Shown here: piece by piece, positions 58,401 through 61,029 of the stretch
How the letters are laid out: every line of letters starts with the position of its first letter
Numbering within the stretch: position 1 is the stretch's first letter
From: Escherichia coli
GTDB taxonomy: Bacteria; Pseudomonadota; Gammaproteobacteria; Enterobacterales; Enterobacteriaceae
Direction: 5' to 3' (one strand)
DNA: 64,000 bases
Assembly (NCBI RefSeq): GCF_003334765.1
Contig: NZ_QOWT01000002.1
Made by a program: the position numbers

Positions 58401-61029
58401 CACACAAAAATAATAATAAGTACAGTTATCATCGCAAAAGAGATTACTGTCACTTTCACATATTTGTGAGTTACCGTATTCTCATGGTTTCTTTTTATTT
58501 ATAAGGAATATCCCTGTGCGACAACGGACTATTGTATGCCCTTTGATTCAAAATGATGGTGCTTATTTGCTGTGTAAAATGGCCGACGATCGCGGCGTTT
58601 TCCCCGGTCAATGGGCGATTTCGGGTGGCGGCGTGGAGCCTGGCGAACGAATTGAAGAGGCACTACGCCGCGAAATTCGCGAAGAACTGGGAGAACAGCT
58701 GCTTTTGACAGAAATCACGCCGTGGACCTTCAGCGATGATATTCGCACCAAGACGTATGCAGATGGTCGCAAGGAAGAGATTTATATGATTTACCTGATT
58801 TTTGACTGCGTTTCTGCCAACCGAGAAGTGAAAATAAACGAAGAGTTTCAGGACTACGCGTGGGTAAAACCTGAAGATCTGGTGCATTATGATTTGAATG
58901 TCGCCACCCGAAAAACGTTACGTTTGAAAGGTCTTCTGTAACAATGATGACAGCCATTACTGGCTGTCAGATTGAAAATTTAGTGGTTAACGAATTCCCC
59001 ATCCAGATAAACTTTGCCTTTTTCCACATGCATGACTAAACCATCCAGATAATCAGGTTTAAATGTCGCGTCACGCTTATCTTTAGCAATATATGTCAGG
59101 CAATGATTATGGGTGAAAATAACGATATTTTTATCAGGCGCTTTGCTTTGTAAGTCCTTAATTGCACTATAAATCTCATTACCGCACTGAAGAAGTCGTT
59201 TATCTACCGTCAATTTTTTACCCGCTGAAAACCAGGTAGCCGACTGAATGGTCCGGACGGTATTACTGGAATAAAGATCGAAATCAGGGATATCAGCACT
59301 AAAAGCGTTGCCCAGTTCACGGGCATCCTGGGTACCTTTAACCGTAATACCTGTTTTATCTGACAAGCATTGATTGGTTGAACGGTCGCAACGTTCAGCA
59401 TGACGAAACAAAACGACAACCGGGTGCTGCTGTGCCAGTCTGGCCAGTGTTTTATTGTCGATACGTGGCAAACCATTGCTACTCCAGGCGGCATGAGTAC
59501 CCAGTCCGGCAATTGCAGCGAGCGCCAGTAAAATGATGATATATTTTTTTGACTTCAACGAAGAGCGGCAAAAAGCTAACACGTAAACTCCACCTATAGA
59601 CAAGCGCAACCAGACAATTACCGTGAAATTGAGCTACATTTCTGGCGATAATTCGCAGTTGGTGTAATATTAAAAATCCTACGATGTCGGCAAAATGCCT
59701 CAAAATTTTGCCAAATGCAAAGCCTAAATAAGAAAAAATATAAAAATTTCAATATTTACGTCTAATATTAGTTTCTTAAGGTTAAGTTAATATTCTATCC
59801 TTAAAATTTCGCTCCAAATGGCAAAATATACACAACACTCTTTATAGCAAATATAAGTGGACAGGTATTCAATGGCGGAAGGAAAAGCAATGTCAGAATT
59901 TTTGCCTTTTTCGCGACCAGCAATGGGCGTGGAGGAACTCGCTGCAGTTAAAGAGGTTCTCGAATCCGGTTGGATCACAACCGGTCCGAAGAATCAGGCG
60001 CTTGAGCAAGCTTTTTGCCAGTTGACGGGAAATCAGCATGCCATCGCGGTCAGTTCAGCCACCGCCGGAATGCATATCACGCTAATGGCGTTGAAAATTG
60101 GCAAGGGCGATGAAGTGATTACGCCTTCCCTGACCTGGGTTTCAACCCTCAATATGATTTCCTTGTTGGGTGCAACGCCGGTAATGGTGGATGTCGACCG
60201 CGATACGCTGATGGTCACGCCTGAAGCTATCGAGTCAGCCATTACGCCACGCACTAAAGCCATCATTCCGGTGCATTATGCCGGTGCGCCAGCAGATATT
60301 GACGCCATTCGCGCCATTGGCGAACGTTACGGCATCGCAGTTATCGAAGATGCTGCCCATGCCGTCGGTACGTATTACAAAGGGCGACATATTGGCGCAA
60401 AAGGTACCGCTATTTTTTCATTTCATGCCATTAAAAATATTACCTGTGCTGAAGGTGGCCTGATTGTAACTGATAATGAAAACCTTGCCCGCCAGCTACG
60501 GATGCTGAAATTTCACGGTCTGGGTGTCGATGCCTATGACAGACAAACCTGGGGCCGTGCACCGCAGGCTGAAGTCTTAACACCGGGCTATAAGTACAAT
60601 CTGACCGATATTAACGCCGCGATTGCCCTGACACAGTTAGTCAAATTAGAGCACCTCAACACCCGTCGGCGCGAAATTGCCCAGCAATATCAGCAAGCAC
60701 TGGCAGCTCTCCCCTTTCAGCCATTAAGCCTTCCCGCCTGGCCGCACGTTCACGCCTGGCATCTGTTTATTATTCGTGTCGATGAACAACGTTGTGGTAT
60801 CAGTCGCGATGCGTTGATGGAAGCGTTAAAAGAAAGAGGCATTGGTACCGGGTTACATTTCCGCGCCGCTCACACACAAAAATATTATCGCGAGCGTTTT
60901 CCCACGCTGTCGTTACCGAATACCGAATGGAATAGCGAACGCATCTGTTCTTTGCCGCTGTTCCCGGATATGACTACCGCCGATGCCGACCATGTCATCA
61001 CAGCCCTTCAGCAACTCGCAGGACAATAA

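What the first reader, a model, noticed from the sequence alone, without database searches (positions are those of the whole stretch)
59610..59871. Divergent ais/arnB control region with PmrA box; GTG start likely for ais
A CTTAAG-N5-GTTAAT direct repeat (59775-59791) lies upstream of arnB, consistent with BasR/PmrA activation of the lipid A aminoarabinose pathway. The ais frame is open to 59609, but the recognised 200-aa protein would begin at a GTG at 59582, so the track coordinate probably over-extends by 9 codons.
Basis: partly seen in the sequence, partly recalled or inferred. Interest (0 to 1): 0.25.

Follow-up and report, generated by a model that had tools for sequence, protein, structure and literature searches.

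The report
Known PmrA-controlled ais/arnB divergent promoter region

Summary
The window is E. coli K-12 MG1655, identical over the 4.5 kb compared. CTTAAG-GTTAA-GTTAAT is at 59775-59791 (+) as stated. It matches the Salmonella-defined PmrA box CTTAAG-N5-xTTAAT exactly (1 hit, 0.04 expected) and is the best-scoring site in the window. 74 of 80 Enterobacterales species have an equivalent same-strand box upstream of arnB (1.3 expected).

Published Cappable-seq start sites (arnB 59816, ais 59685) put the box at -41..-25 of the arnB promoter, the geometry expected of an OmpR/PhoB-type activator. The same box is already printed in a 2023 E. coli paper. BasR/PmrA dependence of arnB reporters in K-12 is published.

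The ais start at GTG 59582 is also right. RefSeq already uses it, and the NCBIfam Ais model begins there. The GTG and its Shine-Dalgarno are conserved in seven genomes (six taxa). Salmonella, Citrobacter sp. R56 and E. albertii have in-frame stops 3, 4 and 9 codons upstream. The upstream alternative is TTG, not ATG.

The boundary in real doubt is arnB. MG1655 annotates ATG 59872, but comparative evidence favours ATG 59890. No separate ais-proximal PmrA box exists, so the single box may serve both promoters. Verdict: real, supported, already known, low interest.

The parts
58980..59582 (-). ais (pmrG) coding sequence, 200 aa, GTG start at 59582-59580; histidine-phosphatase family LPS core heptose(II)-phosphate phosphatase
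   Evidence: RefSeq annotation in three strains. NCBIfam NF011945 positions 1-201 align to residues 10-209 of the long ORF. Orthologue N-termini all begin MLAF. GTG conserved in 7 genomes of 6 taxa.
59588..59594 (-). Shine-Dalgarno GGTGGAG for ais, 5 nt before the GTG
   Evidence: Read from the sequence. A GGAG/GAGG-type element sits at the same place in E. albertii, C. amalonaticus, Citrobacter sp. R56 and Salmonella.
59607..59609 (-). Upstream in-frame TTG (start of the mechanical 209-aa ORF); probably not used
   Evidence: No Shine-Dalgarno upstream. It is TTA preceded by TGA in E. albertii, and the frame is closed 3-4 codons upstream of the GTG in Salmonella and Citrobacter sp. R56.
59583..59685 (-). 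ais 5' untranslated region (103 nt), from the published start site at 59685
   Evidence: Cappable-seq primary TSS 2365723(-) in MG1655 (PMC12987492); coordinate offset. No structure signal (z +1.5) and no Rfam hit.
59692..59697 (-). Inferred ais -10 element CATTTT (-12..-7)
   Evidence: Position relative to the published TSS. It lies in the conserved block AAAATGCCT(C/T)AAA.
59715..59720 (-). Inferred ais -35 element TTGCAT (-35..-30), 17-nt spacer
   Evidence: Position relative to the TSS. It overlaps the conserved CAAA block at 59718-59721.
59762..59771 (.). 10-bp palindrome CTAATATTAG abutting the PmrA box; lies inside the 60-mer shown to bind phospho-QseB
   Evidence: the repeat finder I1. 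EMSA oligo sequence in PMC10729948 covers window 59755-59814.
59775..59791 (+). PmrA/BasR box: half-site 1 CTTAAG (59775-59780), spacer GTTAA, half-site 2 GTTAAT (59786-59791); at -41..-25 of the arnB start site and -106..-90 of the ais start site
   Evidence: Conserved block TTTCTTAA(G/T)GTTAA(G/A/T)TTAA(T/C)ATTC in Escherichia, Citrobacter and Salmonella. 74 of 80 species carry an equivalent box. Published as the PmrA consensus in the E. coli arn promoter.
59802..59807 (+). Inferred arnB -10 element TAAAAT, beginning 11 nt after the box
   Evidence: The same 10-nt gap then TAGGGT in Salmonella and TAATAT in C. rodentium.
59816..59889 (+). arnB 5' untranslated region (74 nt to ATG 59890), from the published start site at 59816
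   Evidence: Cappable-seq primary TSS 2365854(+). No structure signal (z +0.5) and no Rfam hit.
59879..59883 (+). Shine-Dalgarno AAGGA for arnB, 6 nt before ATG 59890
   Evidence: AAGGA(A) is conserved before the MS(D/E)FLPFS ATG in most of the 80 species.
59890..61029 (+). arnB coding sequence with its probable true start (379 aa); MG1655 RefSeq instead starts at ATG 59872 (385 aa)
   Evidence: PGAP annotation in FT130 and CFT073. NCBIfam NF008658 positions 1-378 align to residues 7-384 of the long form. Most species have an in-frame stop 1-5 codons upstream, and the upstream ATG is out of frame in the C. freundii group.

Best explanation
The 307-bp AT-rich spacer between ais (- strand) and arnB (+ strand) of E. 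coli K-12 holds two divergent, activator-dependent sigma-70 promoters.

[quoted passage not shown] The repeat occupies -41..-25 of the arnB promoter. That promoter has no usable -35 hexamer; its -10 is TAAAAT at 59802-59807 and its start site is 59816. From this position PmrA recruits RNA polymerase and turns on arnBCADTEF, the aminoarabinose modification of lipid A that gives resistance to polymyxin, Fe3+ and Al3+.

ais is transcribed the other way from 59685, using a weak -35 (TTGCAT) and -10 (CATTTT). It is translated from GTG 59582, preceded by GGTGGAG, into a 200-aa exported phosphatase.

Shown here or in cited papers: the sequence, its position relative to the mapped start sites, its conservation, the PmrA/BasR dependence of arnB, and the conserved GTG.

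Inferred: direct PmrA contact at this exact E. coli site, the -10 and -35 assignments, and how ais is coupled to PmrA.
For: - Identity of the window: identical to MG1655 over 4.5 kb; gene names from RefSeq.
- Motif: the only exact CTTAAG-N5-NTTAAT in 64 kb, against 0.04 expected. It is the top weight-matrix score in the window, 21.6 bits against 15.3 for the runner-up. The form matches verified Salmonella boxes (PMC3973317).
- Geometry: published Cappable-seq start sites 2365854(+) and 2365723(-) (PMC12987492) put the box at -41..-25 of arnB. The 10-nt gap from box to -10 is the same in Salmonella and C. rodentium.
- Conservation: 74 of 80 species have a same-strand box within 400 bp upstream of arnB; shuffled controls give a mean of 1.3 and a maximum of 5, and only 5 species have one on the opposite strand. 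The box is the strongest conserved island in the Escherichia/Citrobacter/Salmonella alignment. The 57-bp core promoter is present in 5414 of 5426 complete E. coli genomes.
- Function in E. coli: ParnB-gfp induction needs pmrA. arnB-lacZ rises 31- to 72-fold with BasS A20D, with similar activation by BasR G53V. ais, arnB and ugd start sites or transcripts move together.
- Binding at orthologous boxes: PmrA footprints the K. pneumoniae pbgP box, and a PmrA-DNA crystal structure shows head-to-tail binding to such a box.
- ais start.
Against: - No PmrA/BasR footprint or gel shift on this exact E. coli fragment was found in the papers I could read. The only gel shift on it used QseB.
- Half-site 2 begins with G, a deviation from the YTTAAK consensus, and the loose consensus is not above chance.
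- The best -10 hexamer lies at -14..-9, slightly far from the reported start site.
- The start sites come from one re-analysed Cappable-seq data set from antibiotic-treated cells, not from a basR mutant comparison.
- For ais, no PmrA box lies in an activating position close to its promoter, so its coupling to PmrA is unexplained.
Confidence: 0.9

Rival explanations
1. The repeat is mainly a QseB target, and PmrA bound there blocks RNA polymerase. Activation would come from QseB phosphorylated by PmrB. This is the model proposed for an enteropathogenic E. coli strain.
For: PMC10729948 reports three things. Phospho-QseB shifts a 60-mer equal to window 59755-59814. arnB and eptA are constitutively high in a pmrA qseC double mutant. 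The authors propose that PmrA occludes the promoter.
Against: - In MG1655 the arnB reporter needs pmrA for induction.
- Constitutive BasR G53V alone activates arnB-lacZ, to a degree reported as similar to the 31- to 72-fold seen with BasS A20D.
- The box position, -41..-25 with no -35 hexamer, is that of an activator. The orthologous boxes are PmrA-activated in Klebsiella, with a footprint, and in Salmonella, from what I know of the field.
- QseB cross-talk fits better as an added layer than as a replacement.
Confidence: 0.08
2. ais has its own degenerate PmrA site close to its promoter and does not use the arnB box. The two promoters would be regulated independently.
For: - A conserved TTTAAG half-site-like element lies just upstream of the ais -10 in E. 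albertii, Escherichia sp. E1V33, Citrobacter sp. R56 and Salmonella; in K-12 it reads TTTGAG.
- A half-site-like hit TTTAATATTACACCAAC lies at 59658-59674 on the ais strand and scores 9.5 bits.
Against: - The TTTAAG element sits at -19..-14, inside the spacer, with no partner half-site 11 bp away.
- The 9.5-bit hit is downstream of the start site (+11..+27).
- In seven genomes the only site above 15 bits is the arnB-oriented box.
- C. rodentium, which has lost arn and pmrD, still keeps that box at the usual distance from ais.
Confidence: 0.15
3. Ais is translated from the upstream TTG at 59609 (209 aa), as in the mechanical ORF.
For: The frame is open and TTG is a permitted start codon. Both candidate starts lie inside the transcript that begins at 59685.
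Against: - There is no Shine-Dalgarno before the TTG, whereas GGTGGAG sits 5 nt before the GTG.
- The TTG is not conserved: it is TTA in E. albertii.
- In-frame stops lie 3 and 4 codons upstream of the GTG in Salmonella and Citrobacter sp. R56.
- The NCBIfam model and all annotated orthologues start at the GTG position.
Confidence: 0.03
4. The repeat is a chance match in AT-rich spacer DNA and has no function.
For: The spacer is 33% G+C against 51% for the window. The loose consensus with one mismatch occurs as often as expected by chance.
Against: The exact Salmonella-type form is expected 0.04 times per window. It is the top weight-matrix score. It is conserved in 74 of 80 species against 1.3 expected. 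It lies at a fixed distance from the -10 and from the mapped start site.
Confidence: 0.01

Closest known systems
Salmonella enterica pmrG-pbgP (ais-arnB) intergenic region with its PmrA box
   Same: Same gene order and divergent layout. The box CTTAATGTTAATTTAAT sits at the same distance from both genes, 183 nt from the pmrG GTG against 192 nt in K-12. It is followed by the same 10-nt gap and then a -10-like hexamer, and pmrG also has a GTG start.
   Different: Three base differences inside the box. The Salmonella frame upstream of the GTG is closed after 3 codons. Salmonella PmrD connects PhoP to PmrA more readily than E. coli PmrD does (literature). The original footprinting paper (Wosten and Groisman 1999) could not be read here.
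Klebsiella pneumoniae pbgP promoter PmrA box (CTTAAT-N5-CCTAAG), for which footprint, NMR and crystal structures exist
   Same: Two hexamers 11 bp apart, in direct orientation, upstream of arnB, bound head-to-tail by PmrA and overlapping the -35 region.
   Different: Klebsiella also has a PhoP box and a second, PhoP-dependent start site; E. coli, Shigella and Salmonella lack the PhoP box. Half-site 2 is of the CCTAAG type there and of the GTTAAT type here. Klebsiella has no adjacent ais: no ais homologue was detected by tblastn in any Klebsiella or Raoultella locus.
PhoB-type class II activation (pho box at -35, sigma region 4 contact)
   Same: Same regulator family, tandem direct repeats with 11-bp periodicity that replace the -35 hexamer. 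The PmrA-DNA complex was docked on RNA polymerase using the PhoB-sigma4 structure.
   Different: A PmrA-sigma4 contact has not been shown (stated in PMC4660055). The recognition sequence is different.

Membership tests
[quoted passage not shown] | Two hexamers of the type YTTAAK in direct orientation, separated by 5 bp | tested here: met
   CTTAAG-GTTAA-GTTAAT at 59775-59791. It departs once from YTTAAK (G at position 1 of half-site 2) and matches the Salmonella-derived CTTAAG-N5-xTTAAT exactly.
[quoted passage not shown] | Overlaps the -35 region of a promoter that lacks a good -35 hexamer | tested here: met
   The box lies at -41..-25 of the published arnB start site 59816. The sigma-70 consensus scan finds no promoter there.
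[quoted passage not shown] | Conserved in the orthologous promoters of related species | tested here: met
   74 of 80 species, against a mean of 1.3 in shuffled controls. It is the strongest conserved block in the alignment.
[quoted passage not shown] | Expression of the downstream gene depends on PmrA/BasR | not testable with these tools
   Taken from the literature only: ParnB-gfp needs pmrA in MG1655, and arnB-lacZ rises 31- to 72-fold with BasS A20D, with similar activation by BasR G53V.
[quoted passage not shown] | Physical binding of phospho-PmrA to this DNA | not testable with these tools
   I could read no footprint for this E. coli fragment. QseB-P shifts it, and PmrA footprints the K. 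pneumoniae orthologue.
Ais/PmrG LPS core heptose(II)-phosphate phosphatase (NCBIfam NF011945; Pfam PF00300 histidine phosphatase) | Full-length match to the family model above its cut-off, beginning at the proposed start | tested here: met
   390.6 bits against a cut-off of 142. Model positions 1-201 align to residues 10-209 of the long ORF, that is, from GTG 59582. PF00300 is precomputed on homologues.
[quoted passage not shown] | Full-length match to the equivalog model; where the model begins | tested here: met
   739.5 bits against a cut-off of 631. Model positions 1-378 align to residues 7-384 of the 385-aa form, that is, from ATG 59890 and not 59872.

The most novel reading that the evidence does not exclude
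A single, nearly symmetric PmrA box may drive both divergent promoters. The TTAA cores are palindromic and half-site 1, CTTAAG, is a perfect palindrome. The box would act as a -35-overlapping activator site for arnB (centre -33) and as a distal upstream site for ais (centre -98). No other site above 15 bits exists in the spacer of any of seven genomes examined. C. rodentium, which has lost arnBCADTEF and pmrD, still keeps the box at the usual distance from ais. This may already be described for Salmonella in a 1999 paper that I could not read.
Probability: 0.4. Interest if true: 0.2.

Novelty: already known. Interest (0 to 1): 0.08.

Why it matters
The arn operon is the main chromosomal route to polymyxin/colistin tolerance in enterobacteria, so its promoter is medically relevant, but this site is textbook material.

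The practical yield here is small. The public ais start (GTG) is right. The MG1655/UniProt-style arnB start is probably six codons too long; structural and biochemical constructs such as PDB 1MDO and 4OCA carry those six residues. The route by which PmrA reaches the ais promoter in E. coli is not settled.

Tried and rejected
- **Loose consensus significance.** YTTAAK-N5-YTTAAK with one mismatch gives 3 hits against 3.07 expected, so the motif in that form proves nothing.
- **Sigma-70 consensus scan of the spacer.** Its two predicted promoters (+ strand 59623-59652, - strand 59764-59737) do not match either published start site.
- **A second PmrA box for ais.** The weight-matrix scan found only weak hits, badly placed relative to the start site, in K-12 and six other genomes.
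- **Regulatory RNA.** Rfam gives no hit in 59500-59950 even at E = 1. Neither 5' untranslated region folds better than shuffled controls (z +0.54 and +1.49).
- **Inverted repeat GGCAAAAT-N8-ATTTTGCC (59689-59712) as an operator.** The left arm coincides with the conserved ais -10 block. The right arm is not conserved in Salmonella or Citrobacter sp. R56. An 8-nt repeat in 307 AT-rich bases is close to chance by a rough estimate, so I did not pursue it.
- **Solved structure of Ais.** None was found by sequence.
- **Papers I could not obtain:** Marchal 2004 (PMC395753), Winfield and Groisman 2004 (PMC534605) and Nishino 2006 (PMC1618816). Wosten and Groisman 1999 and Ogasawara 2012 are not in the library.
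- **Salmonella in the genome scan.** It was absent from the 80 loci returned and was fetched separately through PmrG.
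Full report
**What the window is.** A 4.5-kb stretch around the finding is base-for-base identical to E. coli K-12 MG1655 (NC_000913.3; window position = genome position minus 2306038). The genes are nudI, ais (- strand), then arnB-arnC-arnA (+ strand). An 801-bp probe across the spacer is found in 5419 of 5426 complete E. coli genomes, always on the chromosome, at 95-100% identity.

**Checking the motif.** CTTAAG-GTTAA-GTTAAT lies at exactly 59775-59791 on the + strand. Its statistical weight depends on the form used:
- The loose consensus YTTAAK-N5-YTTAAK with one mismatch gives 3 hits against 3.07 expected.
- The form derived from experimentally verified Salmonella boxes is half-site 1 'CTTAAG' and half-site 2 'XTTAAT' with five bases between (PMC3973317). 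It is matched exactly and only here; 0.04 hits are expected and 4 of 100 shuffles have any.
- A weight matrix built from 42 distinct arnB-upstream boxes of other species scores this site at 21.6 bits. That is the best in the 64-kb window on either strand, with the runner-up at 15.3.

**Position relative to transcription.** A re-analysis of Cappable-seq data from MG1655 (GEO GSE215300) lists primary start sites at 2365854(+) for arnB and 2365723(-) for ais, together with ugd (PMC12987492). In window coordinates these are 59816 and 59685.
- The box therefore spans -41..-25 of the arnB promoter: half-site 1 at -41..-36 and half-site 2 at -30..-25.
- The best -10 hexamer, TAAAAT (59802-59807), begins 11 nt after the box, and there is no recognisable -35.
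- This is the layout of an OmpR/PhoB-type activator that replaces the -35 element. PmrA binds such boxes head-to-tail, and the Klebsiella complex has been docked on RNA polymerase by analogy with PhoB (PMC4660055).
- The same 10-nt gap between box and -10 is seen in Salmonella (TAGGGT) and C. rodentium (TAATAT).

**Conservation.** I collected 80 arnB loci from different Enterobacterales species.
- 74 have a same-strand [CT]TTAA[GT]-N5-N[CT]TAAN box within 400 bp upstream of arnB. Composition-matched shuffles give a mean of 1.3 and a maximum of 5, and only 5 loci have one on the opposite strand.
- In an alignment of K-12, CFT073, Escherichia sp. E1V33, E. albertii, Citrobacter sp. R56 and Salmonella, TTTCTTAA(G/T)GTTAA(G/A/T)TTAA(T/C)ATTC is the longest near-invariant island of the spacer.
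- The 57-bp core (box, -10 and start site) is present in 5414 of 5426 E. coli genomes and identical in 3011.

**Published function.**
- The arnB promoter reporter in MG1655 responds to Fe3+, low pH and low Mg2+, and its induction at low pH requires pmrA (bioRxiv 10.1101/2020.05.05.080051).
- A single-copy arnB-lacZ fusion rises 31- to 72-fold with constitutive BasS A20D, with similar activation by BasR G53V (PMC8151780).
- The very same box was pointed out in the arn promoter of an enteropathogenic E. coli. The 60-mer used there for a gel shift equals window 59755-59814 apart from one base, but the protein tested was QseB, not PmrA (PMC10729948).
- PmrA footprints the orthologous Klebsiella box. 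E. coli, Shigella and Salmonella are reported to lack the PhoP box that Klebsiella has (PMC2565834).

**The ais start.** The mechanical ORF runs to a TTG at 59609. The frame is open up to the TAG at 59636-59634 and contains no ATG. Four lines of evidence favour GTG 59582:
- RefSeq annotates GTG 59582 (200 aa) in MG1655 and in PGAP-annotated strains.
- The NCBIfam model for this family aligns its positions 1-201 to residues 10-209 of the long ORF.
- All annotated orthologues begin MLAF/MLAL at the aligned position.
- At the DNA level the GTG is conserved in K-12, CFT073, Escherichia sp. E1V33, E. albertii, C. amalonaticus, Citrobacter sp. R56 and Salmonella, each with a GGAG/GAGG-type element 5-8 nt upstream.

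The frame upstream of the GTG is closed after 3 codons in Salmonella, 4 in Citrobacter sp. R56 and 9 in E. albertii, where the K-12 TTG is TTA. The TTG has no Shine-Dalgarno. Both candidate starts lie within the transcript from 59685 (5' leader 103 or 76 nt), so start-site mapping cannot decide between them.

The N-terminus has a basic stretch (R6, K10, K12, K13), a hydrophobic run ([15 protein letters not shown]) and THA before an invariant AWSSNGLP block. I read this as a cleaved Sec signal peptide; that is an inference, as no predictor was available. If so, N-terminal proteomics would see the same mature end whichever start is used.

**The arnB start is the weaker boundary.** MG1655 RefSeq starts arnB at ATG 59872 (385 aa). 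PGAP in other strains starts at ATG 59890 (379 aa, MSEFLPF...).
- Across the 80 species the MS(D/E)FLPFS ATG is nearly universal and is preceded by AAGGA(A).
- Most species have an in-frame stop 1-5 codons upstream.
- In the C. freundii group the upstream ATG is present but out of frame (ATG GCT TGA).
- Between K-12 and CFT073 the 18-nt extension differs at 4 positions, changing 3 of 6 codons, against 2.9% divergence over the 801-bp probe.
- The NCBIfam ArnB model aligns from residue 7 of the long form.
- Crystal-structure constructs used the long form, which says nothing about the native end.

I conclude that 59890 is the more likely start, so the untranslated leader is 74 nt and the spacer 307 bp.

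**How ais is controlled remains open.** The ais start site has a weak -35 (TTGCAT) and -10 (CATTTT). Both fall in blocks conserved from Escherichia to Salmonella. ais transcripts or start sites move with arnB, ugd and eptA in three data sets, and pmrG is listed among confirmed PmrA regulon members in Salmonella (PMC1525208).

Even so, no PmrA box lies in an activating position near the ais promoter. In seven genomes the only site above 15 bits is the arnB-oriented box, 153-196 nt from the ais start codon and centred at -98 of the E. coli ais start site. Read on the ais strand, the box is still TTAA-periodic (ATTAAC-TTAAC-CTTAAG; 8.7-14.7 bits). C. rodentium has lost arnBCADTEF-pmrD, so that ais abuts menE, but it keeps the box and a good -10. 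One shared box is therefore the simplest reading. A recent deletion remnant would look the same, and I could not read the 1999 Salmonella footprinting paper.

**Negative results.** No Rfam family matches the spacer and neither leader folds better than shuffles. The spacer is 33% G+C against 51% for the window. It was catalogued among the 'promoter islands' of a 2013 study, in the section on H-NS complex formation (PMC3661553).

**Verdict.** Interest is low.

Noticed in passing
window 59872-59892: The arnB start annotated in MG1655 RefSeq (ATG 59872, 385 aa) is probably six codons too long. PGAP, the NCBIfam model and about 75 of 80 species support ATG 59890, preceded by an AAGGA Shine-Dalgarno. 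Most species have an in-frame stop just upstream.
   Followed up: yes
L086 (Citrobacter rodentium) about 2260-2560: The arnBCADTEF-pmrD block is missing and ais abuts menE. An intact PmrA box (CTTAAGGTTATATTAAT), a 10-nt gap and a TAATAT -10 are still retained 153 nt from the ais start, pointing toward the menE terminator.
   Followed up: partly
L010 (Citrobacter amalonaticus), between the PmrA box and the arnB ATG: An insertion of roughly 200 bp lies in the arnB leader. It looked to me like an ERIC (enterobacterial repetitive intergenic consensus) element, from recalled primer sequences and not a database match. It moves the box to -327 from the ATG.
   Followed up: no
window about 59433-59450 (ais codons for T-L-A-R-L-A): Some E. 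coli Ais alleles carry one or two extra Leu-Ala-Arg units (203 and 206 aa; P0001 seen on 131 contigs, P0007 on 11). This looks like slippage at an imperfect 9-bp tandem repeat, CTGGCCAGA/CTGGCACAG.
   Followed up: no
window 59689-59712: Perfect 8-bp inverted repeat GGCAAAAT-N8-ATTTTGCC lying across the ais -10 and spacer. The left arm is conserved to Salmonella; the right arm is not. It is probably promoter conservation plus chance.
   Followed up: partly
window 59762-59771: 10-bp palindrome CTAATATTAG immediately upstream of the PmrA box, inside the 60-mer that phospho-QseB shifts in PMC10729948. It is not conserved outside E. coli in the alignment.
   Followed up: no
window 7051-7144 (+); 10805-10881, 10919-10995 and 41169-41239 (-): Rfam hits above gathering score: MicF sRNA (114 bits) and three naRNA4/REP-type elements (76-80 bits).
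   Followed up: no
window 1262-1278 (-): Second-best PmrA weight-matrix hit in the window, CATAAGCTTGAGTTAAG (15.3 bits). Its gene context was not examined.
   Followed up: no
window 58346-58362 (-): TTTAAGAAGTATTTAGT, a one-mismatch match to the loose PmrA consensus, lies upstream of yfaZ. It is not among the top weight-matrix hits, so it is likely chance.
   Followed up: partly
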